Assembly (NCBI GenBank): GCA_913009895.1
Contig: CAJVXY010000002.1
Location: 93,279-157,278, forward strand
From: an uncultured Acidiferrobacteraceae bacterium
GTDB lineage: Bacteria; Pseudomonadota; Gammaproteobacteria; Acidiferrobacterales; SZUA-150
Direction of reading: 5' to 3'
Length of the DNA stretch: 64,000 nt
The stretch's first letter is position 1. Every line of letters begins with the position of its first letter. Of this stretch, positions 3,334-21,405 are shown piece by piece. Made by a program: the position numbers and the translations under genes. Below the pieces are notes generated by a model that searched no databases, had not been told where the DNA came from, and worked only from the letters and a program-made list of their open reading frames with translations.

Positions 3334-4311
3334 TTATGCCGATTGTGTACTCCCTGGTGTTAGCAGGTGTAGTAAATTTACGACCGCCAGTAGTAATAAT
3401 GCAGCCACTGCGTTATGGACAGTGACTACTGACAGTGGTAGCTCTGTTAAAACAGAAGTTACTCCCAGCAAAACCTGCAATACAAGAAATACAAGAATAC
3501 TGATGCTGGTGTTGTAGAATCGCTCGTTTAAACCCGACATTTTAATTGCGAGAACTGCCAGGTATATAAAGGTAATAAACGCACCTATCCTGTGCACCAT
3601 GTGTATTGTTAACTGGATATTTCCGGCAATAACCCTTCCCTGGTCGTCCACAGAGAGTCGACGCGATATATCGAAACCATCGCTTAAATTGGCAATAGCT
3701 GTCCAGTCACCGTTACAACCAAGCAGGTTTGTGCAAGCAGGTGCAGCAAAATTAGCACTCGTCCAGGCACCAAACATAATCTGGATAACCAGGATAACCA
3801 GGCCAAGCAGCACCCAGGGTTTCATTGTTGTGAACGCGTGGTTTACCCCCATTTCAAACGGAACTAATCGTTGACTCATCCACCACAGTAAAGCCAGCAT
3901 GGCCATGCCACCCAGCAGGTTTCCCAGTGTGACAATAGGCAAATCCGGTGATGGCGTGTTGTAACCCAGTACAGATAAAAAGACAGTGAGCCCGAATACG
4001 AGCAAAGGAATAAATACGCCAGCGCCCTGGGTAGCACGTCCTCGTAATGCCATATATGCGATACCCAGTACAATAAAGCCTAACAGGGAAGCGGCAATTC
4101 GGTGAATGACACCTGCCCATGTTTTAGGTACAACACTGCGTTCATGAACCAGTGATATTTGGCCATAACACTCCGGCCAGGGCTCACAACTTAAGCCCAC
4201 GCTATCAAGGCGCATATAGGCACTTAATACCACGGCAGCAAATGTCAGTAATAATGCCAGGTTAATCAGGAGTGAATAAAGGTTGGCGGTTGATTTGCTA
4301 TTTGTCACCAT
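3334..4311 (-). CDS. ctaA: Heme A synthase (COX15/CtaA family)
   Basis: Polytopic membrane protein with the Cys pair CEPWPECYG and the HR motifs (VIHRIAASL, HMVHRIGAF) characteristic of CtaA/COX15. Confidence 0.8.
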   Translation of the reverse strand: MVTNSKSTANLYSLLINLALLLTFAAVVLSAYMRLDSVGLSCEPWPECYGQISLVHERSVVPKTWAGVIHRIAASLLGFIVLGIAYMALRGRATQGAGVFIPLLVFGLTVFLSVLGYNTPSPDLPIVTLGNLLGGMAMLALLWWMSQRLVPFEMGVNHAFTTMKPWVLLGLVILVIQIMFGAWTSANFAAPACTNLLGCNGDWTAIANLSDGFDISRRLSVDDQGRVIAGNIQLTIHMVHRIGAFITFIYLAVLAIKMSGLNERFYNTSISILVFLVLQVLLGVTSVLTELPLSVVTVHNAVAALLLLAVVNLLHLLTPGSTQSA

Positions 4312-4711: not shown

Positions 4712-4870
4712 ATGTCCAATGAAAATCGAGAGGAGAATGAAGAAATTCCAGTAATGCAGCGTATTCTTGATAATCCGTTCCTTTTATTGTTTCTGGGAGT
4801 AGTTATTCCGACTGTGTTTTATATTATTTGGGGGATTATGGAGATTATACACGTACCTATCGCAAAATAA
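4712..4870 (+). CDS. Small single-TM protein (52 aa), possible subunit IIa-like accessory subunit of the downstream heme-copper enzyme
   Basis: Below the ORF-track length cutoff. The ATG is preceded by GGAGGTGG. Translation is MSNENREENEEIPVMQRILDNPFLLLFLGVVIPTVFYIIWGIMEIIHVPIAK, with one hydrophobic helix. It lies directly 5' of subunit II. Confidence 0.5.
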   Translation: MSNENREENEEIPVMQRILDNPFLLLFLGVVIPTVFYIIWGIMEIIHVPIAK

Positions 4871-4926: not shown

Positions 4927-5466
4927 ATGAGCTCCCTTTTACCACCACCAGATCGAATCTGGTGGAAAGAGCCATTAGAAAGAGTAGAGCTAATCTGGGT
5001 CGCCATTGCACTGGTGTGGAGTATTGTTATGTTCTTCATGATGCCTTATTGGCATGTGTACGGAAAACAGAACGTGTCAAACGAGGCCTACAAAACCACG
5101 CCTGAAGCCTTTAAAGCCAAGACTGAAGCAATGGTCGAACAATACACGGTGCGGACAGAGACGGCCGGAAATATACCCGTCGTCAGACCTCCTGTGGGAG
5201 ATGTTTATTTACTGGCACGGTTGTGGGAGTGGTGGCCTATTTTGGAGCTGGAAAAGGACCAGAGCTACCGCTTGCATATTGCATCACTTGACTGGCAACA
5301 CGGTTTTTCACTGCAGCCCGCAAATATCAATCTCCAGGTATTACCTGGTTATGAGATGGTGGTGACCGTCACACCGAATAAGTCTGGTGAATACTCAATT
5401 GTTTGTAACGAATATTGCGGGATCGGCCATCATAGAATGATTGGCAAGATCTACGTAACGGAATAA
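4927..5466 (+). CDS. Heme-copper oxidase superfamily subunit II, CuA-type, ba3-like (single TM plus cupredoxin)
   Basis: CuA ligand pattern DWQHGF ... CNEYCGIGHHRM (H, CxxxCxxxHxxM). The C-terminus VCNEYCGIGHHRMIGKIYVTE closely resembles the Thermus ba3 subunit II C-terminus. At 179 aa with one TM helix it matches B-family architecture. Confidence 0.85.
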   Translation: MSSLLPPPDRIWWKEPLERVELIWVAIALVWSIVMFFMMPYWHVYGKQNVSNEAYKTTPEAFKAKTEAMVEQYTVRTETAGNIPVVRPPVGDVYLLARLWEWWPILELEKDQSYRLHIASLDWQHGFSLQPANINLQVLPGYEMVVTVTPNKSGEYSIVCNEYCGIGHHRMIGKIYVTE

Positions 5467-5478: not shown

Positions 5479-7170
5479 ATGGCAAATAACAACGAATTTC
5501 GCACCTGTCCGGATACCGGATTACAGTTTCACCGACCAGCTGAGACGCTAATGAAGTTAAACGCTGTGGTAGCAGTTGTTTTTCTGCTGGTAGGTGGCAT
5601 CCTGGGTTTATTGTTAGGGTTGACACGATGGCCGGCTATTCATTTGCTTGGCGCATCAGATTTTTACAAAGTACTGACACTCCATGGTATTGATGTCTTG
5701 ATTTACTGGATCATTTTCTTTGAAATAGCAGTACTTTATTTTACATCATCGACGTTATTGAAATGTCGGCTGGCAACACCGCGTATGGCCTGGCTGGCTT
5801 TTGCACTAATGTTGATCGGTGCCGTCACTAATAATGTTGCAATTTTGCAAGGCAATTCCAGTGTGATGTTTACGTCTTACGTACCAATGCAGGCAGACCC
5901 GATGTTTTATCTTGGCCTGATTCTGTTTGCTGTTGGGGCGCTCATTGCCAGTTTTGTTTTTCTTGGAACCCTGGTGATTGCCCGGGCCGAGAAGACATAT
6001 GAGGGGTCTATGCCGTTGGTGACTTTTGGTGCCCTGACAGCAGCTATAATTGCAATATTTACCATTGCCTCGGGCGCGATCATTTTAATACCGACATTTT
6101 TATGGTCGGTGGGCTTGATTGAAGGTATTGATCCGATTATGTACCGGGTGATCTGGTGGGCCTTCGGCCATTCCTCGCAGCAAATCAACATGGCCACCAT
6201 GGTTGCAGTGTGGTATGCCGTCGCTGCCGTTGCGTTTGGTGCCAAGCCTTTGTCAGAAAAAATGTGTCGCAGCGCTTTCCTGTTGTACATATTGTTCCTG
6301 CAACTCGCTAGTGCCCATCATATACTCGTGGATCCTGGCATTAGTTCAACCTGGAAAATATTTAATACCAGTTATGCCATGTACCTGGCGGTGCTTGCCA
6401 GTATGATTCATGGCTTGACAGTTCCAGGCGCAATCGAGGCCGCTCAGCGCAAACGGGGTTTCAATAAAGGTTTGTTCGAATGGTTGCGCAAGGCACCCTG
6501 GAGCAATCCCTCATTTTCCGGCGTATTCCTGTCTATCATTATTTTTGGGTTCCTGGGCGGCATATCAGGCGTAGTGATGGGGACTGAGCAAATTAACCTG
6601 ATTATCCATAATACCCTTTATGTACCAGGACACTTTCATGCGACAGTTGCTACCGGTACAACCCTGGCCTTTATGGCTTTAACGTATTGGTTAGTGCCGG
6701 TATTGTTTCGTCGCCAGGTAATTTTTCCAAAGCTTGCAAGTTTGCAACCGTACCTTTTTGGCTTGGGCATGTCAGGGGTCGCCTTGTTTATGATGGGCGC
6801 AGGAACACTTGGCATACCGCGACGGCATTGGGATATTACCTTCGCCGACTCACCATTGACTCATAATTTCCCGGAGATGGCCAACGCGTTGCTCGGTTTC
6901 ATGGGCGTATCAGTACTCCTGGCCGTGGTAGGTGGCGGCCTATTCTGTTTACTGATAGTAGGTTCATTATTATTTGGCAAGCGTTTGAGCCTGACTGAGA
7001 AGGGCGAAACGCCGTTGATAGCAGAACCCGTTACCAGTTACGAAGGTGTTGGAATTGGTAAAATAGTGGCACCGGGGACACTGGTGCTGGCGATGGTGTT
7101 TTTGACAGCATTCGTTCTCTACTATTTTATTAACTGGAAATTCCTGTCGCAGACCTGGGGTTTGAGTTGA
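5479..7170 (+). CDS. Heme-copper oxidase superfamily subunit I, B-family-like, lacking the helix-VI cross-link tyrosine; candidate NO reductase (sNOR/eNOR-type)
   Basis: 563 aa. Ligand His are H69 (LTLHG), H231 (GHSSQQ), H280/H281 (SAHHIL) and H385/H387 (PGHFHAT). These parallel ba3 H72/H233/H282/H283/H384/H386. Position 235, equivalent to ba3 Y237, is Gln. Confidence 0.85.
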   Translation: MANNNEFRTCPDTGLQFHRPAETLMKLNAVVAVVFLLVGGILGLLLGLTRWPAIHLLGASDFYKVLTLHGIDVLIYWIIFFEIAVLYFTSSTLLKCRLATPRMAWLAFALMLIGAVTNNVAILQGNSSVMFTSYVPMQADPMFYLGLILFAVGALIASFVFLGTLVIARAEKTYEGSMPLVTFGALTAAIIAIFTIASGAIILIPTFLWSVGLIEGIDPIMYRVIWWAFGHSSQQINMATMVAVWYAVAAVAFGAKPLSEKMCRSAFLLYILFLQLASAHHILVDPGISSTWKIFNTSYAMYLAVLASMIHGLTVPGAIEAAQRKRGFNKGLFEWLRKAPWSNPSFSGVFLSIIIFGFLGGISGVVMGTEQINLIIHNTLYVPGHFHATVATGTTLAFMALTYWLVPVLFRRQVIFPKLASLQPYLFGLGMSGVALFMMGAGTLGIPRRHWDITFADSPLTHNFPEMANALLGFMGVSVLLAVVGGGLFCLLIVGSLLFGKRLSLTEKGETPLIAEPVTSYEGVGIGKIVAPGTLVLAMVFLTAFVLYYFINWKFLSQTWGLS

Positions 7171-7291: not shown

Positions 7292-8161
7292 ATGCTGAGT
7301 TTACTCGTTAATGTTTTTAAACTTAGAATCGGCTTGCTGATTGCACTAACAGCGTTAGCCGGATTTGCAGTTACGCCTGGCAGGGATTTGGCATCCTGGC
7401 AAATTGCTGTTCTGGGCCTGCTGGTGCTGATGTCTTCAGCCAGTGCTGGTGCCTTTAACCAGTATGCTGAACGAGATCTGGATGCGAACATGAAGCGTAC
7501 CCGGAATCGGCCGTTTGTCACGGGTGAGCTCAATCATAATAGTACCTGGTTATGGGGTATTGCAGGATTATTGGTATTCGCCGTAACCACAGCTGCCTGG
7601 TTATTTAATGCAGCCACCGCATTTTATATTTTTATGGGTGCATTTGTGTATGCGGTGATTTATACCGTATGGCTTAAGAGAAGAAGTGTATTAAATATAG
7701 TTATCGGTGGTCTGGCGGGTAGTTTTGCAGTACTTGGCGGGGCTGCTGCTGCTGATCCCAACCTGGGTCCAGTGGCAATATTACTGGCAGTGGTATTATT
7801 TTTATGGACACCTCCGCACTTCTGGAGCCTGGCGATTGCCCTGCACAAGGACTATGCGGCAGCCAGGGTGCCAATGTTGCCCGTGGTAGTTGGCGATGCT
7901 GCTGCTGCTAAAATTATTTTTACCAATACGGTGTTGCTGGTAATTGCATCATTGGCACCGGTTTATTATGGCCTTGGCTGGGTGTATTTAATTTGTGCAA
8001 TGTCAGGCGGTATATATTTTCTTTATAAAAGCTATCAACTTATCTATACACCTACAAAAAAGATGGCGATGGCCAATTTTTTTGCCTCGATTATCCAGCT
8101 TTCCCTGATCCTGATTGGTGTTATGCTTGATACACAGTTTACAAGATGGGAAGTTTTTTGA
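7292..8161 (+). CDS. ctaB: Protoheme IX farnesyltransferase (heme O synthase)
   Basis: UbiA-family motif NQYAERDLDANMKRTRNRP in a polytopic protein of 289 aa. Confidence 0.85.
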   Translation: MLSLLVNVFKLRIGLLIALTALAGFAVTPGRDLASWQIAVLGLLVLMSSASAGAFNQYAERDLDANMKRTRNRPFVTGELNHNSTWLWGIAGLLVFAVTTAAWLFNAATAFYIFMGAFVYAVIYTVWLKRRSVLNIVIGGLAGSFAVLGGAAAADPNLGPVAILLAVVLFLWTPPHFWSLAIALHKDYAAARVPMLPVVVGDAAAAKIIFTNTVLLVIASLAPVYYGLGWVYLICAMSGGIYFLYKSYQLIYTPTKKMAMANFFASIIQLSLILIGVMLDTQFTRWEVF

Positions 8162-9000
8162 ACTTAAAGCAGAAAAAAGTTTTAATTTTTTTTGTTGTTT
8201 TATTGTTGTTTTTTTCTCCAGCACACTGGCTGGCAGCTGCGGAAACACCTGTAACCAGCAAACCTGAGTTACGGAAATTTGAAAAATCCTCGGCTTTGGT
8301 AACCAGCCAGGGCGCCATTGGCCACGTAACCGGTGATTATACGTTCTACGATCGCCAGCAGCGAAAGGTACTACTCTCAAGCTATCGCGGTAAACCCCTG
8401 ATCATAAGTTTGATATTTACAAGCTGCCATCATATCTGTCCGACAACTACACAAAATTTAGCGAATGTGGTTAAACTTGCCCAGGAGGTTCTGGGTGAAG
8501 ATAGTTTTAACATTGTTAGCATCGGCTTTGATGTACAAAATGACACGCCTGATGCGATGCGCAATTTTGCAATTCAACAAGGCGTGGATGAAATACCTGG
8601 CTGGGAATTTTTAAGTGCTGACGCACCTACAATAAATGCATTGACTGGTGAACTGGGTTTCCAGTTCTTTCCTTCGGCAGGTGGGTTTGATCATTTAATC
8701 CAAACCAGCCTGATCGATGCCGAGGGCGCTGTATATCGCCAAGTGTATGGTACAAAATTCAATACACCATTACTGGTAGATCCATTAAAAGAGCTGGTTT
8801 TTGGGCGACCGGTTAAAGGTTCGCTGGTAACATCGATACACAATAGAATTCGGCTGTTTTGTACTGTCTATGACCCGGCAAGTGGTCGTTATATTTTTGA
8901 TTACTCCCTTTTTGTCGGGATGATTATTGGTTTTATAATATTAATTTCAATTTCTATATGGCTGGTTCGTGAATGGCGAAAATCAGCCACAAGTAAATGA
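8146..9000 (+). CDS. senC: SCO1/SenC family copper chaperone, with N-terminal signal and C-terminal TM helix
   Basis: Thioredoxin-like CxxxC site (FTSCHHICPTT) plus a downstream conserved His (GGFDHLIQTSLID). The C-terminal hydrophobic helix is FVGMIIGFIILISISIWLV. Overlaps the ctaB stop. Confidence 0.75.
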   Translation: MGSFLNLKQKKVLIFFVVLLLFFSPAHWLAAAETPVTSKPELRKFEKSSALVTSQGAIGHVTGDYTFYDRQQRKVLLSSYRGKPLIISLIFTSCHHICPTTTQNLANVVKLAQEVLGEDSFNIVSIGFDVQNDTPDAMRNFAIQQGVDEIPGWEFLSADAPTINALTGELGFQFFPSAGGFDHLIQTSLIDAEGAVYRQVYGTKFNTPLLVDPLKELVFGRPVKGSLVTSIHNRIRLFCTVYDPASGRYIFDYSLFVGMIIGFIILISISIWLVREWRKSATSK

Positions 9001-9100: not shown

Positions 9101-10681
9101 TTGCTAGAAAGAACGCAGAGAAGTGGTCGACGACTCTTCGAATGGGTAGAGGCCGGATTCAATCGAATTGGCGGCCATCGCTGGAATCCATTTTATCAGC
9201 TCGGGGCCCTGTCATTTTTCTTTTTCTGGATCATTACTGTCAGCGGCCTGTATCTTTACATTTTCTTTAGAACTGGCACGACAGCAGCTTATGAATCAGT
9301 AGAATACCTGACTATTGATCAGTGGTATCTTGGCGGTGTGATGCGTAGCTTGCATCGTTACGCATCGGATGCGTTTGTAGTTACAATTGTATTGCATATT
9401 CTGCGTGAGTTCTTCATTGGTCGTTACCGCTACTTTCGCTGGTTCTCCTGGGTTACCGGTGTCCCGTTGCTATGGCTAACGTTTGCGGCGGGAATCGGGG
9501 GCTATTGGCTGGTATGGGACAGCCTGGCCCAGTACATTGCGATAACTACGGCTGAATGGCTGGATTGGCTGCCTTTTCTTACCGATCCGATTGCGCGTAA
9601 TTTTCTCAACCAGGCAAGCATGAGTGATCGATTCTTTTCACTACTGTCATTCCTGCATATCGCCATACCTTTATTCTTGCTATTGGGTATGTGGATACAT
9701 ATCCAGCGTATGACACTTCCTCGCTCCAATCCAACACGTATCCTGGCTGTGGGTACTATCTCGGCGCTGTTAGTGCTTTCGTTTATCCTGCCAGCCACGA
9801 GCCAGGAACCAGCCAACCTTGATAATCTTGTCTTTACGGTAAATCTTGACTGGTTTTATCTCAATTTTTACCCTTTGCTTGATAAATGGTCGGCTGGCAG
9901 CATCTGGGCACTGGTTTTTGGTGTTACATTGTTGTTAGTGGTGATGCCCTGGTTACCGCCTCACAAACCAGAACCCGTTGCCGTAGTCGATCTCGAGAAT
10001 TGCAATGGATGTGGGCGCTGTTTCGATGACTGTCCATTTGGCGCAGTTGATATGTTTCCACGTACAGATAATTTACCATTTTCCCATGAGGCCGTTGTTG
10101 ACAGCGCATTATGCGCCAGTTGCGGCATTTGTGTTGGTTCTTGCCCAACCGCAACGCCATTCAGGCGGGCGACAGCTTTGGTGCCAGGTATAGATATGCC
10201 GCAGTTAAAGATCGCGGATATCCGGGATAAAACCGTACAAGCCGCAGAAAAATTAACTGGTCATGACAGGGTGATAGTATATGGTTGTCGAAATGGGACC
10301 GACATAAACAGGTTACAGGGATCAGGCGTGGCGGTAATTTCATTACCGTGTATTTCTGCTTTACCGCCGTCTTTTATAGATTTTGTGATTGCACGTGGCC
10401 ATGCTGAGGGTGTGTTCCTCACAGGTTGTCAGCAGGGCGATTGTTACTACCGCTTGGGCATTGACTGGACAGAACAACGTATAGCCGGACTTCGTGATCC
10501 TGCGCTTCGAAAAAAGGTGCCACGTGAGCGTGTAGCCACATGCTGGTCCGGCCCGGTAGGATTTGCCAGGCAAAAAGCCGAACTGGTTTCATTCAGGGCC
10601 CAGTTGCTGGAAATGGGACCTAACAGAAGGAACGGTGCAATCATTAATAAAACCGATACACCTGACAGCAAAGGGGGGTGA
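9101..10681 (+). CDS. Fusion protein: di-heme cytochrome b-like membrane domain + 2x[4Fe-4S] ferredoxin + MvhD/FlpD-like domain
   Basis: Two helices each carry His pairs at i/i+14 (HRYASDAFVVTIVLH and HIAIPLFLLLGMWIH), as in bc1/b6f cytochrome b. These are followed by CNGCGRCFDDCP and CASCGICVGSCP. The last domain has VYGCRNG...LPCISALP...LTGCQQGDCYYRLG, which is MvhD-like. TTG start with AGGAG 8 nt upstream. Confidence 0.7.
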   Translation: MLERTQRSGRRLFEWVEAGFNRIGGHRWNPFYQLGALSFFFFWIITVSGLYLYIFFRTGTTAAYESVEYLTIDQWYLGGVMRSLHRYASDAFVVTIVLHILREFFIGRYRYFRWFSWVTGVPLLWLTFAAGIGGYWLVWDSLAQYIAITTAEWLDWLPFLTDPIARNFLNQASMSDRFFSLLSFLHIAIPLFLLLGMWIHIQRMTLPRSNPTRILAVGTISALLVLSFILPATSQEPANLDNLVFTVNLDWFYLNFYPLLDKWSAGSIWALVFGVTLLLVVMPWLPPHKPEPVAVVDLENCNGCGRCFDDCPFGAVDMFPRTDNLPFSHEAVVDSALCASCGICVGSCPTATPFRRATALVPGIDMPQLKIADIRDKTVQAAEKLTGHDRVIVYGCRNGTDINRLQGSGVAVISLPCISALPPSFIDFVIARGHAEGVFLTGCQQGDCYYRLGIDWTEQRIAGLRDPALRKKVPRERVATCWSGPVGFARQKAELVSFRAQLLEMGPNRRNGAIINKTDTPDSKGG

Positions 10682-11158: not shown

Positions 11159-11704
11159 ATGATGACCAGGGTATTACAATATATAGGCCAGGTAGTAGCA
11201 TACGGAGGGTTCATTATTTTTGTCGGCTACTTGTCTGCTGCACCTGCCTATGTTCACCTGCAGCCAGGCCAGGCTCAAATAAAGCTTAGCTTTAGTCATG
11301 CGGGAAAGCCCGTCAGTGAATGTCGTGAACGTAGCGATGAAGAGCTTGCACGTCTTGCGCCTAATATGCGCGTAAGAAAAGTATGCCCCAGAGAACGTTC
11401 CGGTGTAGCTGTAGTGCTGGAGGTGGATGACAAGTTGTTGTATAGCGATATTTTACAACCCTCCGGCCTGAAAAAAGACGGGACATCAACAACATACAGA
11501 AAATTCACGGTTAAAGCCGGTAAGTATAAAATAAAAATAAAACTCAAGGATGACTTCCGGAAATCAACGACCATCAAAGATGTGTCAAAGTTAAATGCAG
11601 GTGATTTTAATTACACATATTCCCGGAAAGTCTATCTCGGTGCAGGAAAAATAATGGTCATTGATTTTAATAAGGAGGCAGATGGATTTGTTTTCAGTTT
11701 TTGA
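11159..11704 (+). CDS. Hypothetical N-terminally anchored protein (181 aa)
   Basis: One N-terminal TM helix (VVAYGGFIIFVGYLSAAPAYV) followed by a Lys-rich soluble domain that looks beta-rich. I recognise no family. Placed between the hemerythrin and the second heme-copper-like gene. Confidence 0.5.
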   Translation: MMTRVLQYIGQVVAYGGFIIFVGYLSAAPAYVHLQPGQAQIKLSFSHAGKPVSECRERSDEELARLAPNMRVRKVCPRERSGVAVVLEVDDKLLYSDILQPSGLKKDGTSTTYRKFTVKAGKYKIKIKLKDDFRKSTTIKDVSKLNAGDFNYTYSRKVYLGAGKIMVIDFNKEADGFVFSF

Positions 11705-11793: not shown

Positions 11794-13161
11794 ATGCAGG
11801 AAGATTTCATACTATCGGTACCAAAAGATAACCGTCGGGATTTAGCCAAAGGCTGGCTCTGGCTGGGTTTAATTTCTCTATTAGTATCAGGAATTTTTTC
11901 AGTTCTCCTGGTAGTCTTTCGCACGCCCTATATCCAGAATATTTTCTCCTCGGTAGATTTTTTTCGAACTGCTCTGGTTGTCCATGTAGATCTTTCTGTT
12001 TTGGTCTGGTTTCTTGCTTTTGGTGGCGTGTTCTGGAGTTTGAATTCCACTACCAGTTTCATACGGCTCGGTTGGTCAGCATTATTCTTTGCCACGCTGG
12101 GTACGATAGTGATGGTGCTGGCGCCATTTATTGGTAATGGCAACCCGCTGATGAGTAATTATATTCCTGTCTTGCAGGATTCAGTGTTTATAACAGGTTT
12201 GTTGTTTTTTGCATTTGGTATCACCTTGCTGGTTCTGCGAAGTATGTTTGCTATCCCACTGGTAGGGCTGCAAATTACAGGTGTTGGTTCATTACGTTTC
12301 GGCCTGAATACCGCTGCTATATCTGCAATTATGGCGCTGCTCGCATTTTTCTGGTCTTTTCTGGCTATGCCGGATTTTGTTACTGGAAAAGCCTTTTACG
12401 AACTCCTGTTTTGGGGTGGCGGCCACATGCTGCAATTTACATATACATTGCTCATGCTCGTCGCCTGGTTGTGGTTGGCTACTGCTTCGGGTCTCCGCAT
12501 TGCCCTGAGTCCAAGAGTTGTGCTGCTTCTTTTCATATTAGGTCTAATGGCGGTATTCACGGTTCCGCTAATTTATTATTCCTACAAAATAATTTCAGTT
12601 GAACACATTAAACTCTTTACCTGGTTGATGGCGTATGGTGGCAGCCTGGCCACACTACCATTGGCTTTGGCAATTCTTCACGGTTTTTTTATTAGCTCAC
12701 CAGCATCAGGATCACAGACACCCTTACGAGCAAGTTTGATCATGTCTATGATTTTATTTGGTGTCGGTGGTGTTATCGGTTTCCTGATCGAGGGGAGTAA
12801 CGTTACGATTCCCGCCCATTATCACGGTTCTATTGTCGGCGTTACATTGGCATTTATGGGGATGACGTATAATTTACTGCCGCGTTTTGGTTATAAGTAT
12901 CCTGATGTGAAATTGGCTCGTATTCAACCCTATATATATGGAGGTGGCCAGTTATTGCATGTATCAGGATTAGTATGGTCAGGAGGATATGGTGTCCAGC
13001 GAAAAGTTGCAGGTATTGAGCAGGGGCTCGACGACATGGAAAAAATTGCCGCGATGGGCTTGATGGGCCTGGGGGGATTGGTCGCGATTATAGGCGGACT
13101 GATGTTTCTCCTAGTGGTTTATAAAGCCATGGCAAACAGGAAAACGCAAGAAACAGCCTAA
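11794..13161 (+). CDS. Heme-copper oxidase subunit I-like polytopic membrane protein with incomplete metal-ligand set
   Basis: 455 aa and about 12 TM. Has LVVHVDL (H64), FWGGGHMLQF (H211) and IPAHYHGSIVG (H342/H344), at spacings reminiscent of HCO helices II, VI and X. There is no HH pair where helix VII would be; YY261-262 sits there. Confidence 0.55.
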   Translation: MQEDFILSVPKDNRRDLAKGWLWLGLISLLVSGIFSVLLVVFRTPYIQNIFSSVDFFRTALVVHVDLSVLVWFLAFGGVFWSLNSTTSFIRLGWSALFFATLGTIVMVLAPFIGNGNPLMSNYIPVLQDSVFITGLLFFAFGITLLVLRSMFAIPLVGLQITGVGSLRFGLNTAAISAIMALLAFFWSFLAMPDFVTGKAFYELLFWGGGHMLQFTYTLLMLVAWLWLATASGLRIALSPRVVLLLFILGLMAVFTVPLIYYSYKIISVEHIKLFTWLMAYGGSLATLPLALAILHGFFISSPASGSQTPLRASLIMSMILFGVGGVIGFLIEGSNVTIPAHYHGSIVGVTLAFMGMTYNLLPRFGYKYPDVKLARIQPYIYGGGQLLHVSGLVWSGGYGVQRKVAGIEQGLDDMEKIAAMGLMGLGGLVAIIGGLMFLLVVYKAMANRKTQETA

Positions 13162-13985: not shown

Positions 13986-15524
13986 ATGGTGGGCATATTC
14001 TTGCTCACGGTGAGTGCTGGTGTATTTGCTGGTGGTACACTGGAAACCTACCCTGAAATAAAAAATTTTTTCCCTGCTTTAACCCGTGTCGGTGATATTG
14101 CTGGCGAGCCGCCTGCAGCACCTGTGTACCAGCAAGGTAAACTTCTGGGATATGTATTTTCTACACAAGCAATAGCACCTATTCCTGCTTATTCGGGTAA
14201 ACCTATTAACATCCTGGTTGGCTTGAATCTTTCCGGACAGATAACGGGCCTTAAGATAATCGAACATCACGAGCCAATTTTATTGGTTGGCGTTTCTGAA
14301 AAACAATTAAAAGAATACATTGATCAGTACCAGGGCGTGGACATTTTTGATCGCGTCCGGGTAGGGGCAGAAAAGAAAGCGGGCTCAGTGGGTATTGACA
14401 CGATTAGTGGCGCGACCATTACTGTGATGGTCTCCAATGCCACTATTGTCAATTCTGCCAGAACCGTTGCGGCCAGGTACGGCATTACTCGTAGTAGAAA
14501 GTCGGGTAAAAGCTCGCCAGTAATTTTAACAAGACAGGCCCCGGTTGCGGCTGAAAAAGAACTTCCGGCAAATAACCCGGCTGAGACTCCCTTGGTCTCA
14601 GAAGCGCCAGACCTGGAGCGGGCCTGGGTCACCATCTGGGAAGGTCGTGCTATTGAGATTGGTATTTTGGTTTTTGCCCTGTTCTTATTGACAGCAATCC
14701 TGTTATTTCAGGATTGGATTGTACGACGACCAACCCTGTATGAATATTTACGGAATGGTTATTTATTATTTACTGTTTTTTTTATTGGTGGTTATGCGTT
14801 GGCACAGCTTTCTATTGTTAATGTTTTGACCTTTGTTCATGCTTTTGTCCATGACTTCAGGTGGGAAACCTTTGCCCTGGACCCCCTTATATTTATTCTC
14901 TGGGTATTTGTTGCATTCACTTTGTTGTTATGGGGGCGCGGGGTGTACTGCGGCTGGTTATGTCCATTTGGTGCTATGCAGGAATTGATAAACATGGTTG
15001 CCCGTCGCTTTAAGGTTAAGCAGTGGGAATTCCCGACTATGGTTCATGAGCGTCTTTGGGCAATAAAATACGTGGTGTTGATTGCATTGTTCGGCATCTC
15101 ACTACAGTCACTATCATTGGCAGAGTATTACGCAGAAATCGAACCATTTAAAACCACGATTCTGCGTTTTGATCGGGCATGGCCATTTGTGCTTTATGTG
15201 GTGGTCCTGTTAATGATTTCTATAGTCAATCGCAAGTTTTATTGTAAATATATTTGCCCCCTGGCAGCTGCCCTCATAATTCCGGCCCAAAACCGGGTTT
15301 TTGACTGGGTAAGAAGACGCAATGAATGTGGTAAACCATGCCAGGTCTGCGCTGATTTATGTGAAGTACAGGCGATCGCACCAACTGGTGAAATTAACAA
15401 GAATGAATGTCATTATTGTCTGGACTGCCAGGTAACATACTGGAATGAATACAAATGCCCACCCCTGGTCCAGGAACGTAAAAAGCGGGAACGGCATATT
15501 GCTGTTCATAGCCTTTCGAATTAA
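13986..15524 (+). CDS. nirI: NosR/NirI-family membrane protein (periplasmic FMN-binding domain, TM domain with CX3CP motifs, C-terminal polyferredoxin)
   Basis: FMN_bind-like GIDTISGATITV, CGWLCPFGAMQE and CKYICPLAA, and C-terminal CGKPCQVCADLCE / CHYCLDCQ...CPP. Sits directly 5' of nirS. It is shorter than classical NosR, and its start is uncertain. Confidence 0.75.
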   Translation: MVGIFLLTVSAGVFAGGTLETYPEIKNFFPALTRVGDIAGEPPAAPVYQQGKLLGYVFSTQAIAPIPAYSGKPINILVGLNLSGQITGLKIIEHHEPILLVGVSEKQLKEYIDQYQGVDIFDRVRVGAEKKAGSVGIDTISGATITVMVSNATIVNSARTVAARYGITRSRKSGKSSPVILTRQAPVAAEKELPANNPAETPLVSEAPDLERAWVTIWEGRAIEIGILVFALFLLTAILLFQDWIVRRPTLYEYLRNGYLLFTVFFIGGYALAQLSIVNVLTFVHAFVHDFRWETFALDPLIFILWVFVAFTLLLWGRGVYCGWLCPFGAMQELINMVARRFKVKQWEFPTMVHERLWAIKYVVLIALFGISLQSLSLAEYYAEIEPFKTTILRFDRAWPFVLYVVVLLMISIVNRKFYCKYICPLAAALIIPAQNRVFDWVRRRNECGKPCQVCADLCEVQAIAPTGEINKNECHYCLDCQVTYWNEYKCPPLVQERKKRERHIAVHSLSN

Positions 15525-15747: not shown

Positions 15748-17535
<1,788 letters not shown>

Positions 17536-17618
17536 AGGATAATAACTTCGGCTAATTATGCGGGGGTTAATTTGTGCCCCCGTATTTTTTGAATAGTAAT
17601 ATTGACAGAGGTATTGCC

Positions 17619-18416
17619 ATGAAAGATTCAGCCTGTGTGTATTTGGTTGGTACTGGACCTGGTGATCCTGATTTGTTAACAGTTAAAGCGCTACGTTTGT
17701 TGCAAAGTGCCGATGTTGTAATCTACGATCGCCTGGTTAATAAAGCGATCCTGCAACAAGTCCCCGCCGGCGTACTTAAAATATTTGTTGGTAAGGCAAC
17801 AAGCAATCACGCATTCTCCCAGGATGAAACCAATCGGTTAATGGTTAAACTTGCCGATAAAAAAAGAACTATTGTCAGGCTGAAAGGTGGCGACCCCTTT
17901 ATTTTTGGGCGTGGTGGTGAGGAGGCGTTGTACCTGGCCCAAAGGGACATCCCTTTTGAAATTGTGCCCGGGATAACGGCTGCCACGGCAGCTGCTACTT
18001 ATGCCGGAATACCGCTGACACACCGTGGATTAGTGCAAAGTGTACAGTTCATCACAGGCCACGGCCGGAATAACAAACCGCTGGATTTTGATTGGCAGAA
18101 ACTGGCCGACCCACAGACCACACTTGTTGTTTATATGGGGCTGGCGACTATTGGCGAAATAAGCAAACAGTTGATTGTTGCCGGGTTGCCGGCAGATATG
18201 CCAGTAGCCGCAATTGAAAATGGATCAACAGCCAGGCAACAGCGCTTGTTAACCACGTTAAAGGATGTACCAAAAGATGTAAAACTATATGGACTTCAGC
18301 CACCTGTTTTATTTGTCATTGGCAGAGTAGTGGGGCTGGCAGAATCCCTGGACTGGTTTATTACAGATGACCTTGATTCATGTGAAGGTGAACAGGATAA
18401 GCATGCGCAAGGCTAG
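17619..18416 (+). CDS. nirE: Uroporphyrinogen-III C-methyltransferase (SUMT) for heme d1 synthesis
   Basis: VYLVGTGPGDPDLLTVKALRLLQSADVVIYDRLV and GGDPFIFGRGGEE. The track ORF begins at 17574; the internal ATG at 17619 (MKDSACVYLVG) fits the family N-terminus. Confidence 0.9.
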   Translation: MKDSACVYLVGTGPGDPDLLTVKALRLLQSADVVIYDRLVNKAILQQVPAGVLKIFVGKATSNHAFSQDETNRLMVKLADKKRTIVRLKGGDPFIFGRGGEEALYLAQRDIPFEIVPGITAATAAATYAGIPLTHRGLVQSVQFITGHGRNNKPLDFDWQKLADPQTTLVVYMGLATIGEISKQLIVAGLPADMPVAAIENGSTARQQRLLTTLKDVPKDVKLYGLQPPVLFVIGRVVGLAESLDWFITDDLDSCEGEQDKHAQG

Positions 18417-18732
18417 GAGAGCGTGGCTCCTTTTCTGCATCAGTATTTTAACCCCTACCGCAATGGCAGAAATTACGGTTTCGCGCCAGGTAGAGTTAAA
18501 AAATCTTTTAGAGCAGGACTGTGGTTCATGTCATGGCCTGACGCTAAAGGGTGGCCTCGGCCCGGCTTTGACTATTGATGCCATGAAAAAGAAACCTCGG
18601 GCAGTCATGCTGGCAACAATATCAGATGGCCGTCCTGGTACACCCATGCCACCATGGAAAAATATTTTAACAGCTGAAGAGATAGCGTGGCTGCTTGATG
18701 TGTTATATAAAGGTAGTTACCGTGAAAAATAG
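18403..18732 (+). CDS. nirC: Cytochrome c55X
   Basis: Signal peptide plus CGSCHG. A small mono-heme c in the nir context. ATG 18403 overlaps the nirE stop. Confidence 0.8.
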   Translation: MRKARRAWLLFCISILTPTAMAEITVSRQVELKNLLEQDCGSCHGLTLKGGLGPALTIDAMKKKPRAVMLATISDGRPGTPMPPWKNILTAEEIAWLLDVLYKGSYREK

Positions 18733-19912
18733 AAATTATAAAAAATGGTTAACAATCCTGGCTGTTGCCGTTCTTGCGACAGGCACATCTTCCTGTGTAA
18801 CGGTACGGGCAACCGGGGACCTTGGGATCGTAATTGAACGGGCAACCGGTAGTGTGCAAATTATTGAGACAACTAACCGTACTGTTCTTGGGCGTGTCGA
18901 CAAGCTTGGTGATCTGTCTCATGCTTCAGTAGTTTATTCACGCGACCAGAAATATGCCTATGTTTTTGGACGGGATGGCGGGCTGACAAAAATTGATCTG
19001 ACTTCCCGATCTATCGATAAACGGGTTCTCCAGGCGGGAAACAGTATTGGTGGCGCTATATCAACGAATGGTCGACTGATAGCTGTCTCGAATTACAAAC
19101 CAGGCGGAGTCCGCGTGTTTAGTGCCGAAACGCTTGAGTTGGTTGCAGATATTCCGGCAACCTATGACAAGCAAGGCAGGCGCTCCAAGGTAGTAGGTCT
19201 GGTTGATGCACCAGGGCAAAAGTTTGTCTTTAGCCTGTTCGATGCCGGAGAAATTTGGGTTGCCGATTTTAGCAAATCAAATCAACCGGATATTACAAAA
19301 TTCAGACAAATCGGTAATCAGCCATACGATGCTTTAATTTCACCAGAGGGTCGTTATTATATTGCAGGCCTGTTTGGTGAGGATGGTTTGGCATTACTGG
19401 ATCTCTGGCACCAGGATGCTGGCGTAAAAAGAATTCTGAATGGATATGGTCGAGGTAAGAAAAAATTACCTGTTTATAAAATGCCGCACCTCGAGGGTTG
19501 GGCAATTGCCGGTGGCTATACTTTTGTACCGGCAGTGGGGCTACATGAAGTGCTGGTAATTAACAGGAGTAACTGGCGCGAGAAAAAAAGAATAGCAGTT
19601 TATGGTCAGCCGGTATTTGTTATGGCAAGTCCTGACCAGCGGAAAGTGTGGGTTAATTTTGCTTTTCCCAACAACGACACTGTCCAGGTAATCGATACAG
19701 AAACCCTTAAGGTGGTAAAACAAATAAAACCAGGAAAGGCCGTGATGCATATGGAATTTACTCCTCGTGGTGAGGAGGTATGGGTATCAGTCAGGGATGA
19801 AAATTTAGTGAAAGTGTACGACACCAGTACTTATAACGTGACCGCCTTGCTGAAAATGAAAAAACCGAGTGGAATTTTCATGTCAGCCAGGGCGCACCGT
19901 ATCGGGCTGTGA
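18722..19912 (+). CDS. nirF: Heme d1 biosynthesis protein NirF (cd1-like beta-propeller without heme c)
   Basis: Resembles the NirS d1 domain (ending KKPSGIFMSARAHRIGL) but has no CxxCH. GTG 18722 gives VKNRNYKKWLTILAVAVLATGTSSC, a possible lipoprotein-type signal. Confidence 0.85.
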   Translation: MKNRNYKKWLTILAVAVLATGTSSCVTVRATGDLGIVIERATGSVQIIETTNRTVLGRVDKLGDLSHASVVYSRDQKYAYVFGRDGGLTKIDLTSRSIDKRVLQAGNSIGGAISTNGRLIAVSNYKPGGVRVFSAETLELVADIPATYDKQGRRSKVVGLVDAPGQKFVFSLFDAGEIWVADFSKSNQPDITKFRQIGNQPYDALISPEGRYYIAGLFGEDGLALLDLWHQDAGVKRILNGYGRGKKKLPVYKMPHLEGWAIAGGYTFVPAVGLHEVLVINRSNWREKKRIAVYGQPVFVMASPDQRKVWVNFAFPNNDTVQVIDTETLKVVKQIKPGKAVMHMEFTPRGEEVWVSVRDENLVKVYDTSTYNVTALLKMKKPSGIFMSARAHRIGL

Positions 19913-19925
19913 GGGAGGGCTTTTG

Positions 19926-20381
19926 ATGAACCTCAATACCCTGGAAAAAAGACTCTTGAATGAGTTTCAGCGTAATTTTCCGCTGGCGAAAAAACCTTAT
20001 GCTGAAATTGCCATGAAACTGGGGGTTGACGAAAACCTGGTGTTGCAGATCCTGGAAAAATTACAGTCCATGGGCGTTATTAGTCGTGTCGGCGCTGTAT
20101 TTGAGCCACATCGTATTGGTGCCAGCACCCTGGCATCGATGACCGTGCCTGAATCAGAATTGATAGCTGTTGCCGATATTGTCAGTAGTTTTGTTGAAGT
20201 TAATCACAATTACGAGAGGGAGCATAAAATCAACTTGTGGTTCGTCGTCACTGCCAGGGATGATAAACATTTACAAAAAGTAATTCGTGAAATAGAAGAG
20301 CAAACCGGGTACGAAGTTATGCGCTTGCCAATGCTGGAAAATTATCATATTGACCTGGGGTTTGACTTAAAATGGACGTAA
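19926..20381 (+). CDS. nirD: Siroheme decarboxylase subunit NirD (Lrp/AsnC-like)
   Basis: The N-terminus LEKRLLNEFQRNFPLAKKPYAEIA is typical of NirD/AhbA-type proteins. ATG 19926 follows GGGAGGG. Confidence 0.8.
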   Translation: MNLNTLEKRLLNEFQRNFPLAKKPYAEIAMKLGVDENLVLQILEKLQSMGVISRVGAVFEPHRIGASTLASMTVPESELIAVADIVSSFVEVNHNYEREHKINLWFVVTARDDKHLQKVIREIEEQTGYEVMRLPMLENYHIDLGFDLKWT

Positions 20382-20938
20382 AAGTAACCGGGAAAACACT
20401 TATGCCAGGCCTGCAGGAGTTTGATGAGCAGGATTGGGCGCTGGTAAGACTGATCCAGACAGGATTACCAATTTTGTCTCGACCATACCAGGTATTGGCT
20501 GAGCAGACAGGGCTAACAGAAGAAGATGTAATAACAAGACTAAAAAGAATGCAGCAAACAGGTTGCATCAAACGCATGGGTGTCATTGTCAGGCATCGGG
20601 AGCTTGGCTACCGGGCCAACGCAATGGTGGTCTGGGATGTCCCGGATGAGCTGGTAACTGAAACAGGGCGTTGTTTAGGACAATTTGAATTTATCACTCT
20701 CTGTTATCGGAGACCACGTCACTTACCGGTCTGGCCGTATAATTTATTTTGCATGATTCACGGCCATAGTCGTGATGAAGTTTTGCAACGTCTCGGTATG
20801 CTGGTAGAAAAATGCAAGCTGGAATTTAAATACAAGATTCTGTTTAGCAAACGCTGTTTTAAACAACGTGGTGCTATTTACCAGCCTGTTCAGACTTCTG
20901 CGGATAAAACAAAAATTAATTTAACGGGTACCCGGTAA
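20372..20938 (+). CDS. nirL: Siroheme decarboxylase subunit NirL
   Basis: Paralogue of NirD/G/H: LIQTGLPILSRPYQVLAEQTG and YRRPRHLPVWPYNLFCMIHG. Overlaps the nirD stop. Confidence 0.8.
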   Translation: MDVKVTGKTLMPGLQEFDEQDWALVRLIQTGLPILSRPYQVLAEQTGLTEEDVITRLKRMQQTGCIKRMGVIVRHRELGYRANAMVVWDVPDELVTETGRCLGQFEFITLCYRRPRHLPVWPYNLFCMIHGHSRDEVLQRLGMLVEKCKLEFKYKILFSKRCFKQRGAIYQPVQTSADKTKINLTGTR

Positions 20939-20939
20939 T

Positions 20940-21389: not shown

Positions 21390-21405
21390 ATGAGAAGCTC
21401 AAGAA

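What the first reader, a model, noticed from the sequence alone, without database searches (positions are those of the whole stretch)
6169..6183. Active-site motif GHSSQQ: the cross-link tyrosine position is glutamine while all six ligand histidines are retained
Counting the supplied translation gives H69, H231, H280, H281, H385 and H387. These are within 1-3 residues of Thermus ba3 H72, H233, H282, H283, H384 and H386, so the alignment is essentially gapless. The residue equivalent to ba3 Y237 (His+4) is Q235 (CAA, 6181-6183). The conserved Pro and Val of HPxVY are Ser and Gln. Loss of the His-Tyr cofactor is the hallmark that separates NOR-type members from O2-reducing A/B-family members. 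All three CuB/FeB His are kept, which argues against a gNOR-type site.
Basis: partly seen in the sequence, partly recalled or inferred. Interest (0 to 1): 0.75.

Follow-up and report, generated by a model that had tools for sequence, protein, structure and literature searches.

The report
eNOR-type nitric oxide reductase gene
This gene encodes an enzyme that resembles an oxygen-reducing respiratory oxidase, but a glutamine replaces its catalytic tyrosine, which is the published signature of the eNOR family of nitric oxide reductases, so the finding is correct but already explained.

Summary
ORF 5479-7170 (+) is a 563-aa heme-copper oxidoreductase subunit I. H231-S-S-Q-Q235 lies at 6169-6183, and Q235 (CAA, 6181-6183) aligns with the cross-link Tyr237 of Thermus ba3. 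All six ligand histidines are kept.

The substitution is not chance. Q234, Q235, N237 and all six histidines are invariant in 203 homologs sharing 43-100% identity.

The interpretation, a NOR-type enzyme that is not gNOR, is right but not new. Gln at this position is the published diagnostic of the eNOR family. Rhodothermus marinus eNOR has been purified; it reduces NO and does not reduce O2.

The other family traits are present:
- ba3 is the closest solved structure;
- subunit II has an intact CuA site;
- the K-channel-like residues are conserved;
- ctaA, ctaB and SCO1 sit in the cluster;
- a complete nirS cd1 nitrite reductase cluster follows downstream.

Verdict: an ordinary new member of a known family, commonly misannotated as cytochrome c oxidase.

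Two things seen in passing deserve follow-up. The first is a very divergent second HCO-like gene (11794-13161) that lacks the His-His pair and is conserved in eNOR clusters. The second is an eNOR-specific NTSYAMY motif in helix VIII, whose geometry I could not test.

The parts
3334..4311 (-). ctaA (COX15/CtaA heme A synthase), transcribed divergently from the eNOR operon
   Evidence: Pfam PF02628, 3.5e-39. Murali et al. note that many eNOR operons carry ctaA. It lies within 10 kb in 19 of 80 related loci.
4712..4870 (+). 52-aa single-helix small subunit, analogous by position to ba3 subunit IIa
   Evidence: No family hit. Conserved upstream of subunit II in 77 of 80 loci. The equivalence to IIa is inferred from gene order and size.
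4927..5466 (+). eNOR subunit II: N-terminal transmembrane helix plus a cupredoxin domain with a complete CuA site (H125, C160, E162, C164, H168, M171) and conserved E21 at the inner end of the helix
   Evidence: phmmer to ba3 subunit II, 2.8e-16, aligns 'CNEYCGIGHHRM' with 'CNQYCGLGHQNM'. The ligands and E21 are at least 95% conserved in 81 sequences.
5479..7170 (+). eNOR subunit I (563 aa), the catalytic heme-copper-oxidoreductase-fold subunit
   Evidence: Pfam COX1, 1e-69. Best solved relatives are ba3 oxidases at 1e-54. AF2 model pLDDT 86.5, pTM 0.90. Foldseek TM 0.80 to ba3. Falls in the Gln clade in the NJ tree.
5683..5685 (+). H69, first axial ligand of the low-spin heme (ba3 H72)
   Evidence: invariant.
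6166..6189 (+). Helix VI motif G-H231-S-S-Q234-Q235-I-N237: the metal-B histidine followed by the eNOR-diagnostic Gln at the cross-link Tyr position
   Evidence: Literature.
6316..6321 (+). H280-H281, second and third metal-B ligands (ba3 H282, H283)
   Evidence: invariant.
6364..6384 (+). N296-T-S-Y299-A-M-Y302, an eNOR-specific motif at the periplasmic end of helix VIII
   Evidence: It was the most conserved peptide chosen by the locus search. Y299 and Y302 are invariant or nearly so in 203 eNORs. Both are absent from the Tyr-bearing sister group and mostly absent from B-family sequences.
6400..6420 (+). S308, H311 and T314 on helix VIII, counterparts of the ba3 K-channel residues S309, T312 and T315
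   Evidence: Alignment; conservation. Y246 (= ba3 Y248) and S259 (= ba3 S261) are also conserved.
6631..6639 (+). H385-F-H387: proximal ligand of the high-spin heme and second ligand of the low-spin heme (ba3 H384, H386)
   Evidence: invariant.
7292..8161 (+). ctaB/cyoE, heme O synthase
   Evidence: NCBIfam TIGR01473, 5.4e-80, above the cutoff. Present in 58 of 80 loci.
8146..9000 (+). SCO1/SenC copper chaperone
   Evidence: Pfam PF02630, 4.8e-13. Present in 70 of 80 loci.
9101..10681 (+). Fusion protein: cytochrome b, 2x[4Fe-4S] ferredoxin and an FlpD/MvhD-like domain
   Evidence: Pfam PF00033, Fer4 families and PF02662. Present in 62 of 80 loci and in the distant cluster L086. A cyt b/[Fe-S] gene is also reported in the Ferrigenium eNOR operon.
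11159..11704 (+). 181-aa membrane-anchored protein with no family match and conserved C55, C76 and H47
   Evidence: No Pfam or NCBIfam hit. Present in 59 of 80 loci, directly upstream of the second HCO-like gene in the window and in most of these loci.
11794..13161 (+). Second, very divergent HCO-like protein (455 aa). It keeps the heme ligands (H64, H342, H344) and one metal-B His (H211) but lacks the His-His pair.
   Evidence: Pfam COX1 only 3e-11. No PDB sequence hit, even with a profile. hhalign to eNOR/B-family: 100% probability, E 5e-51, with HH aligned to L259-I260. AF2 pLDDT 85 with an HCO fold. True orthologs in 47 of 80 loci and in L086.
13986..15524 (+). NosR/NirI-like membrane FMN/Fe-S protein
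   Evidence: Pfam FMN_bind plus Fer4_5.
15790..17535 (+). nirS, cytochrome cd1 nitrite reductase, the source of NO
   Evidence: Pfam Cytochrom_D1, 4.9e-157, plus a cytochrome c domain. A nirS at 68% identity or more lies within 10 kb in 14 of 80 loci and next to the distant eNOR in L086.
17574..24757 (+). Heme d1 biosynthesis and accessory genes: nirE, nirC, nirF, nirD/L/G/H, nirJ and nirN
   Evidence: Pfam TP_methylase, cytochrome c, Cytochrom_D1, NirDL-like HTH/AsnC, Radical_SAM and Cytochrom_D1 plus cyt c.
24804..25487 (-). CRP/FNR-family regulator; whether it is Dnr/NnrR-type was not tested
   Evidence: Pfam cNMP_binding plus HTH_Crp_2.

Best explanation
ORF 5479-7170 is the catalytic subunit of an eNOR-type nitric oxide reductase, a branch of the B-family heme-copper oxidases that has switched from O2 to NO. 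The likely mechanism runs as follows. A periplasmic cytochrome c donates electrons to the CuA centre of subunit II (4927-5466). They pass to the bis-His low-spin heme (H69/H387) and then to the binuclear site. That site comprises the high-spin heme (H385) and a metal held by H231, H280 and H281. Two NO molecules are reduced there to N2O and water. This is a two-electron reaction, so the His-Tyr radical cofactor is not needed, and its position holds Q235. cNOR places its fourth FeB ligand, Glu, at the same position, so Q235 (with Q234 and N237) is inferred to ligate or tune the metal and handle protons. Protons probably come from the cytoplasm through a K-channel-like path (subunit II E21; subunit I S259, Y246, T314, H311, S308), which would make the reaction electrogenic. 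The hemes are probably A-type, made by the adjacent ctaB and ctaA, and SCO1 loads copper. The NO is supplied by the nirS nitrite reductase encoded 8.6 kb downstream. Shown here: the sequence signature, its conservation, the fold, the CuA site and the gene context. Taken from the literature: NO-reducing, non-O2-reducing activity and heme A content in a family member. Inferred: the identity of the B-site metal, the role of Q235 and proton uptake.
For: The motif is present and aligns with ba3 Y237. Gln at this position is the stated diagnostic of eNOR (PMC8756737). R. marinus eNOR reduces NO, cannot reduce O2 and holds modified heme a; many eNOR operons carry ctaA; the family derives from the B family, has a CuA subunit and has a K-channel-like path (PMC11214002). 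H231, Q234, Q235, N237, H280 and H281 are invariant in 203 homologs at 43-100% identity. The NJ tree groups the window protein with every Gln-type sequence, including a haloarchaeal one; haloarchaea are a published eNOR host group. This clade is separate from the canonical GHPxVY B-family sequences. Fold: AF2 pLDDT 86.5, Foldseek TM 0.80 to ba3. The CuA ligands and E21 of subunit II are conserved. K-channel counterparts S308, H311, T314, Y246 and S259 are conserved. Context: ctaA, ctaB and SCO1 in the cluster, and a full nirS/heme d1 cluster plus a CRP/FNR regulator downstream. The same operon architecture is described for the Ferrigenium straubiae eNOR, which is highly transcribed under denitrifying conditions and detected in an earlier proteome from such conditions. 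At least 560 species genomes encode relatives, with nirS within 10 kb in 14 of the best 80.
Against: Nothing is known about the activity of this protein or of any proteobacterial ortholog at 66% identity or more. Activity is transferred from R. marinus, whose sequence I could not retrieve for direct comparison. The B-site metal of eNOR has not been reported as measured, and the presence of SCO1 would also fit copper. Two eNOR-specific tyrosines (Y299, Y302) in helix VIII might lie near the metal-B ligands, and I could not measure this. No FNR/Dnr box with one mismatch or fewer lies upstream of the operon.
Confidence: 0.88

Rival explanations
1. It is still an oxygen reductase. A tyrosine from another helix, such as Y299 or Y302 of the eNOR-specific NTSYAMY motif in helix VIII, replaces the lost helix-VI Tyr, as happened with helix VII in the cbb3 (C) family.
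For: Y299 and Y302 are invariant or nearly so in 203 Gln-type sequences and absent from the Tyr-bearing sister group. That is the pattern expected of a compensating residue. From my own knowledge of A-family structures, M301 aligns with the helix-VIII Thr that H-bonds a CuB histidine, so the motif may lie at the level of the metal. ctaA requires O2, and eNOR hosts denitrify under micro-oxic conditions.
Against: Purified R. marinus eNOR did not reduce O2 with any donor tested. Murali et al. report that their structural models show no migrated Tyr able to form a cross-link in these families. The C-family position (HH minus 6) is an invariant Leu. The gene sits beside nirS.
Confidence: 0.04
2. 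It is a heme-copper-fold enzyme acting on another substrate or in another role, for example NO detoxification without energy conservation, NO dismutation, N2O or peroxide chemistry, or electron disposal linked to the adjacent cyt b/Fe-S protein.
For: Only one family member has been assayed. The conserved extra genes (cyt b-FeS-FlpD fusion, 181-aa protein, second HCO-like protein) have no explained role. The Chloroflexi study explicitly leaves alternative substrates open.
Against: The signature, subunit composition and operon match the characterised enzyme. nirS adjacency recurs across distant clusters. The Ferrigenium eNOR is strongly transcribed under denitrifying conditions.
Confidence: 0.07
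3. It is a decaying, non-functional copy of a ba3-type oxidase that happened to lose the Tyr.
For: None beyond the loss of the Tyr itself.
Against: The ORF is intact and all metal and heme ligands are kept. The replacement residues are invariant over 203 sequences from Alpha-, Beta- and Gammaproteobacteria and a haloarchaeon. The accessory gene cluster is conserved.
Confidence: 0.01

Closest known systems
eNOR family of heme-copper nitric oxide reductases (Hemp & Gennis 2008; Murali et al. 2024, PMC11214002). Characterised members are the Rhodothermus marinus eNOR (Rmar_0161) and the Magnetospirillum magnetotacticum 'cytochrome a1-like' hemoprotein.
   Same: Gln at the cross-link Tyr position, with three metal-B His and both heme His pairs retained. 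B-family-like fold. CuA subunit II. K-channel-like residues. ctaA, ctaB and SCO1 in the operon. Association with nir genes. Routine misannotation as cytochrome c oxidase subunit I.
   Different: Nothing at the level of the defining features. This is an uncharacterised marine gammaproteobacterial member; an identical protein occurs in marine metagenome assemblies, and the closest named genome is an Acidiferrobacterales MAG (85% identity). The low-spin heme is His/His, not the His/Lys variant found in some eNORs. Identity to the R. marinus enzyme was not measured.
B-family oxygen reductase, Thermus thermophilus cytochrome ba3 (1EHK, 1XME)
   Same: Closest solved structure: phmmer 1e-54, Foldseek TM 0.80, about 27% identity. 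Same six His ligands within 1-3 residues, the same CuA motif in subunit II, a small third subunit, and a single K-type channel.
   Different: HPIVY becomes HSSQQ, so no His-Tyr cofactor is possible. ba3 K-channel T312 is His311 and Y244 is Val/Ile. An NTSYAMY motif is gained in helix VIII. The expected substrate is NO, not O2.
cNOR and qNOR (for example P. aeruginosa NorBC, 3O0R)
   Same: Same proposed reaction. Both lack the Tyr cofactor and carry an O-donor side chain at His+4 (Glu in cNOR/qNOR, Gln here; PMC8756737 Table A4).
   Different: [quoted passage not shown] They are not detected by sequence search with this protein.
Archaeal sister group with GH-x-x-Q-Y-[IV]-N (P0128, P0129, P0132, P0143; Hodarchaeales and Thermoproteota). 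This is possibly the 'K family' of O2 reductases that the FIND preprint says clusters with eNOR.
   Same: 40-45% identity. Shares Q234, N237, H311, Y222 and Y270.
   Different: Keeps the cross-link Tyr and lacks Y299 and Y302. Assignment to the K family is my inference and was not tested.
bNOR, sNOR, nNOR and gNOR (other B-family-derived NORs, PMC11214002)
   Same: All derive from oxygen reductases, lack the Tyr and have a cupredoxin-type subunit II.
   Different: sNOR has Asn at the Tyr position. According to Murali et al., bNOR shares sNOR's active-site structure. nNOR has the cNOR-type Glu site and a His/Met heme. gNOR replaces a ligand His with Asp and lacks CuA. None of these features is seen here.

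Membership tests
eNOR | Gln in place of the cross-linked active-site Tyr (His+4 on helix VI) | tested here: met
   Q235 aligns with ba3 Y237. It is invariant in 203 homologs. The criterion is stated in PMC8756737 section 2.7.1 and Table A4.
eNOR | All three metal-B histidines and the three heme histidines retained | tested here: met
   H231, H280, H281, H69, H385 and H387 are present and invariant.
eNOR | [quoted passage not shown] | tested here: met
   Best PDB sequence and fold matches are ba3. In the NJ tree the Gln clade is nested beside B-family sequences.
eNOR | Clusters phylogenetically with recognised eNORs | tested here: inconclusive
   It groups with a haloarchaeal Gln-type sequence (Natrarchaeobius, 42% identity) from a published eNOR host group. 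A Magnetospirillaceae MAG ortholog shares 70% identity. The R. marinus and M. magnetotacticum sequences themselves could not be retrieved, and the tree is a simple NJ tree of 31 sequences.
eNOR | CuA-containing cupredoxin subunit II | tested here: met
   H125, C160, E162, C164, H168 and M171 align with the ba3 CuA ligands and are at least 95% conserved.
eNOR | Conserved K-channel-like proton path resembling that of ba3 | tested here: met
   S308, H311, T314, Y246 and S259 align with ba3 S309, T312, T315, Y248 and S261 and are conserved. E21 of subunit II is conserved. Proton conduction itself was not tested.
eNOR | A-type hemes, with ctaA often in the operon | tested here: met
   ctaA (3334-4311) and ctaB (7292-8161) flank the structural genes. 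The actual heme content cannot be tested here.
eNOR | Catalyses NO reduction to N2O and not O2 reduction | not testable with these tools
   Shown only for the R. marinus enzyme. Here it is supported only indirectly, by the adjacent nirS cluster.
B-family O2 reductase (ba3 type) | His-Tyr cross-linked cofactor (HPxVY) | tested here: not met
   The motif is HSSQQ. There is no Tyr at His+4 or at the C-family alternative position, L274.
gNOR | One metal-B His replaced by Asp, and subunit II lacking CuA ligands | tested here: not met
   All three His are present and the CuA site is intact.
cNOR/qNOR | Glu at His+4 as fourth FeB ligand, C-family relatedness, and a heme c or quinol donor | tested here: not met
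   Gln, not Glu. No sequence match to NorB structures. A CuA subunit replaces NorC.
sNOR | Asn at the Tyr position | tested here: not met
   The residue is Gln235 (Table A4).

The most novel reading that the evidence does not exclude
In bacteria the functional unit may be larger than the two-subunit eNOR described so far. Three further genes travel with eNOR in most proteobacterial clusters and in a cluster only 55% identical (L086). They are a cytochrome b-2x[4Fe-4S]-FlpD fusion, a 181-aa membrane protein, and a second, extremely divergent HCO-like protein that keeps both heme sites but has lost the His-His pair of the binuclear centre. They could form a membrane module that feeds quinol-derived or low-potential electrons to eNOR, or that matures it. 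Separately, the eNOR-specific helix-VIII tyrosines Y299 and Y302 could be a functional replacement for the lost helix-VI Tyr.
Probability: 0.2. Interest if true: 0.6.

Novelty: new member of a known kind. Interest (0 to 1): 0.22.

Why it matters
The finding assigns a specific function to a gene that annotation pipelines label 'cytochrome c oxidase subunit I' or 'cbb3-type oxidase'. With that function, this uncultured marine gammaproteobacterium has the NO-consuming step next to its nirS. It would therefore be an N2O producer and possibly an energy-conserving aerobic denitrifier. This affects how metagenomes are read for N2O budgets, but it adds nothing conceptually beyond Murali et al. 2024. 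What remains open for the family as a whole is the identity of the B-site metal, the role of the Gln pair, whether the enzyme pumps protons, and what the conserved accessory genes do.

Tried and rejected
1. I tried to obtain the R. marinus or Magnetospirillum eNOR sequences for direct comparison. No supplementary files of PMC11214002 are held. The genome scan returned only the 80 closest loci, all at 66% identity or more. Cluster look-ups named a haloarchaeal member but not Rhodothermus.
2. I tried to test for an alternative Tyr in 3D. The AF2 model is confident, but coordinates are not exposed to the script environment. Only sequence-position arguments were possible.
3. I looked for FNR/Dnr boxes (TTGAT-N4-ATCAA). 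There are 6 matches with one mismatch or fewer against 4.1 expected, which is not significant. Two lie upstream of the NosR-like gene and nirS, and none lies upstream of the eNOR operon.
4. NCBIfam has no eNOR-specific model. Only far-below-cutoff matches to CtaD, QoxB and SoxB appear.
5. I considered and rejected gNOR, sNOR, nNOR and cNOR/qNOR on their defining residues.
6. I considered and rejected a pseudogene on conservation.
7. For the second HCO-like gene, phmmer and profile searches of PDB found nothing. Only profile-profile comparison and fold comparison placed it in the superfamily.
Full report
**Observation.** The ORF at 5479-7170 (+) encodes a 563-aa protein. Reading the DNA, codon 231 begins at 6169. 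The five codons 6169-6183 are CAT TCC TCG CAG CAA, which translate to H231-S-S-Q-Q235. G230 lies at 6166-6168. H69, H280, H281, H385 and H387 are also present.

Pfam assigns the protein to COX1 (1e-69). A phmmer search of all PDB sequences gives Thermus thermophilus cytochrome ba3 subunit I as the best match (E about 1e-54). The alignment over residues 49-493 is almost gapless. It sets 'WWAFGHSSQQ' against 'FWWTGHPIVY'. Q235 therefore occupies the position of the cross-linked Tyr237, S232 that of Pro234 and Q234 that of Val236. The six histidines match ba3 H72, H233, H282, H283, H384 and H386.

**Not chance.** Changing a Tyr codon into CAA needs two substitutions. The motif GHS[SA]QQ[IVL]N occurs in all 120 best hits among more than 8,000 database homologs. 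It also occurs in all 80 best genome loci out of at least 560 species genomes that encode a relative. In an alignment of 203 sequences spanning 43-100% identity, the following are invariant: H69, H231, Q234, Q235, N237, H280, H281, H385 and H387. The substitution is a selected, family-wide feature.

**What it is.** The literature already defines this signature.
- The eNOR family of heme-copper nitric oxide reductases is identified by 'a conserved Gln residue' at the site where oxygen reductases have the cross-link Tyr. At the same position cNOR and qNOR have Glu and sNOR has Asn (PMC8756737, section 2.7.1 and Table A4, after Hemp & Gennis 2008).
- Murali et al. 2024 (PMC11214002) purified the Rhodothermus marinus eNOR. 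It reduces NO (kcat about 0.7 per second at 25 C) and cannot reduce O2. Both heme sites carry a modified heme a.
- The same paper reports that the family derives from the B family and has a CuA subunit II. It has conserved residues resembling the ba3 K-channel, often has ctaA in the operon, and is common in nature (547 GTDB genomes).

The window gene meets each sequence-level criterion.
- Its closest solved relatives by sequence and by fold are ba3 oxidases. The AF2 model has pLDDT 86.5 and pTM 0.90, and Foldseek gives TM 0.80.
- Subunit II (4927-5466) aligns with ba3 subunit II and carries H125, C160, E162, C164, H168 and M171, the complete CuA ligand set. These are at least 95% conserved in 81 orthologs.
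- S308, H311, T314, Y246 and S259 align with the ba3 K-channel residues S309, T312, T315, Y248 and S261 and are conserved. Glu21 is conserved at the cytoplasmic end of the subunit II helix, where ba3 has Glu15 (the equivalence is inferred).
- ctaA (3334-4311, minus strand), ctaB (7292-8161) and SCO1/SenC (8146-9000) surround the structural genes.
- A 52-aa single-helix ORF (4712-4870) precedes subunit II in 77 of 80 loci. It sits where ba3 encodes subunit IIa.

In a neighbour-joining tree of 31 diverse homologs, the window protein falls in a clade holding every Gln-type sequence. One member comes from the haloarchaeon Natrarchaeobius (42% identity), and haloarchaea are a published eNOR host group. 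The sister group is archaeal, keeps the Tyr and has the motif GHxxQY[IV]N. Canonical GHPxVY B-family sequences lie outside both groups.

**Context.** Downstream of the eNOR cluster lie:
- a NosR/NirI-like gene (13986-15524);
- nirS, cytochrome cd1 nitrite reductase (15790-17535, Pfam 4.9e-157);
- the heme d1 and accessory genes nirE, C, F, D/L/G/H, J and N (17574-24757);
- a CRP/FNR-family regulator (24804-25487, minus strand).

The rest of the window is housekeeping, with no cNOR, qNOR or nosZ. The enzyme that makes NO is therefore encoded 8.6 kb from the proposed NO reductase. nirS at 68% identity or more lies within 10 kb in 14 of the 80 loci. A cluster only 55% identical (L086) sits beside both nirS and napA.

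A 2026 preprint on Ferrigenium straubiae describes the same operon: eNOR II, eNOR I, heme o synthase, sco1, a 'scaffold protein' of unknown function and cyt b/[Fe-S] genes. It reports that eNOR transcripts are the most abundant heme-copper enzyme transcripts under denitrifying conditions. It adds that the genes had long been misread as coxA and coxB.

The organism is an uncultured marine gammaproteobacterium. An identical protein occurs in marine metagenome assemblies. The closest named genome is an Acidiferrobacterales MAG at 85% identity; an unclassified Gammaproteobacteria MAG shares 83% and Sulfuricaulis MAGs about 75%.

**Mechanism.** Electrons most likely flow from a periplasmic cytochrome c to CuA, then to the low-spin heme (H69/H387). 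From there they reach the binuclear site, formed by the high-spin heme (H385) and the metal bound by H231, H280 and H281. There 2 NO + 2 e- + 2 H+ give N2O + H2O. The reaction needs two electrons, so the Tyr radical donor is dispensable.

Q235 occupies the position where cNOR places its fourth FeB ligand. I infer that it, with Q234 and N237, supplies an O-donor ligand or an H-bond network for a non-heme metal and for proton delivery. Proton uptake from the cytoplasm through the K-like path would make the enzyme electrogenic, as the literature proposes.

The steps rest on different bases.
- Shown here: the signature, its conservation, the fold, the CuA site and the context.
- Taken from the literature: the activity and the heme type.
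- Inferred: the B-site metal, the role of the Gln pair and proton translocation.

I put this explanation at 0.88.

**Rivals.**
- An oxidase with a migrated Tyr (0.04). The cbb3-type position, six residues before HH, is an invariant Leu. Y222 and Y270 are shared with the Tyr-bearing sister group, so they do not compensate for the loss. Y299 and Y302, in the helix VIII motif N296-T-S-Y-A-M-Y302 (6364-6384), are specific to the Gln clade. Murali et al. state that their models show no migrated Tyr able to cross-link, and the purified enzyme does not reduce O2.
- A different substrate or role (0.07). This cannot be excluded without biochemistry.
- A decaying copy (0.01). Conservation excludes it.

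**Novelty.** The finding is a correct recognition of a family-defining signature that is already published and biochemically explained. It is a new, uncharacterised member of a known kind, so a specialist would not be surprised. Interest is 0.22.

**Seen in passing.** The window holds a second HCO-like gene (11794-13161, 455 aa), preceded by a 181-aa membrane protein (11159-11704).
- It matches Pfam COX1 only at 3e-11. It has no PDB sequence match, even as a profile.
- Profile-profile comparison with the eNOR/B-family alignment gives 100% probability (E 5e-51).
- Its AF2 model (pLDDT 85) has the HCO fold.
- It keeps H64, H342 and H344 (heme ligands) and H211 (first metal-B His, in FWGGGHxLQF). 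The His-His pair aligns with Leu-Ile.
- True orthologs follow eNOR in 47 of 80 loci. A 32%-identical homolog sits just upstream of the eNOR genes in the distant cluster L086, and none is present in the haloarchaeal locus.
- More than 7,000 database homologs exist, annotated generically.

A cytochrome b-2x[4Fe-4S]-FlpD fusion (9101-10681) is similarly conserved, in 62 of 80 loci and in L086. Whether these genes form an extended eNOR complex or a maturation system is open. That is the most novel reading the data allow (probability about 0.2).

Noticed in passing
window 11794-13161 (+), with 11159-11704 (+): A second, extremely divergent HCO-like protein (455 aa). It keeps both heme-ligand sites (H64, H342, H344) and one metal-B His (H211) but has Leu-Ile where the His-His pair should be. 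A 181-aa membrane protein with no family match precedes it. True orthologs sit downstream of eNOR in 47 of 80 genome loci, and a 32%-identical homolog sits just upstream of eNOR in a cluster only 55% identical (L086). There are more than 7,000 database homologs, all annotated generically. It may be the 'eNOR scaffold protein of unknown function' mentioned in the Ferrigenium preprint, but that could not be verified.
   Followed up: partly
window 9101-10681 (+): A fusion of cytochrome b (N-terminal, bc1/b6-like), two [4Fe-4S] ferredoxin motifs and an FlpD/MvhD-like domain. It is conserved in 62 of 80 eNOR loci and in L086. It suggests a dedicated electron-input or electron-coupling module for eNOR, but its role is unknown.
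   Followed up: partly
window 6364-6384 (+), subunit I residues 296-302: The motif NTSYAMY at the periplasmic end of helix VIII is the most conserved peptide of the family. Y299 and Y302 are specific to the Gln-type clade and absent from the Tyr-bearing sister group. Their position relative to the binuclear centre could not be measured.
   Followed up: partly
proteins P0128, P0129, P0132, P0143 (Hodarchaeales and Thermoproteota MAGs): The archaeal sister group of eNOR has GH-x-x-Q-Y-[IV]-N. It keeps the cross-link Tyr yet already shares Q234, N237, H311 and Y270 with eNOR. This looks like the oxygen-reductase lineage from which eNOR arose, possibly the 'K family'.
   Followed up: partly
proteins P0182, P0196, P0209, P0250, P0254 (one from a Dehalococcoidia MAG): A group of full-length HCO homologs has 'FH-x-x-H-Y' on helix VI, 'Y-H' in place of the His-His pair, and Tyr in place of the proximal His of the high-spin heme (GYFH instead of GHFH). 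This is an unusual ligand set that I did not pursue.
   Followed up: no
window 13816-13829 and 15524-15537: FNR/Dnr-like half-palindromes (TTGATGTAAGTCAA and ATGATATGTATCAA) lie upstream of the NosR-like gene and of nirS. The window-wide count is not above chance (6 against 4.1 expected). None with one mismatch or fewer lies upstream of the eNOR operon.
   Followed up: yes
L084 1869-3761 and L085 506-2398: A distant homolog of the second HCO-like protein (P0266, 38% identity, 'GGGHTLQY') is encoded directly after a DUF420 gene. From my own recollection, untested here, DUF420 is the CtaM family linked to heme A oxidase maturation. No eNOR is visible on these short contigs.
   Followed up: no
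L083 (Natrarchaeobius, GCA_041205745.1): The haloarchaeal eNOR locus is minimal: a 181-aa subunit II-like gene, subunit I, a 239-aa gene and a UbiA-family gene nearby. It has no second HCO-like gene, SCO1 or cyt b-FeS fusion, so the accessory module appears to be a bacterial addition.
   Followed up: partly
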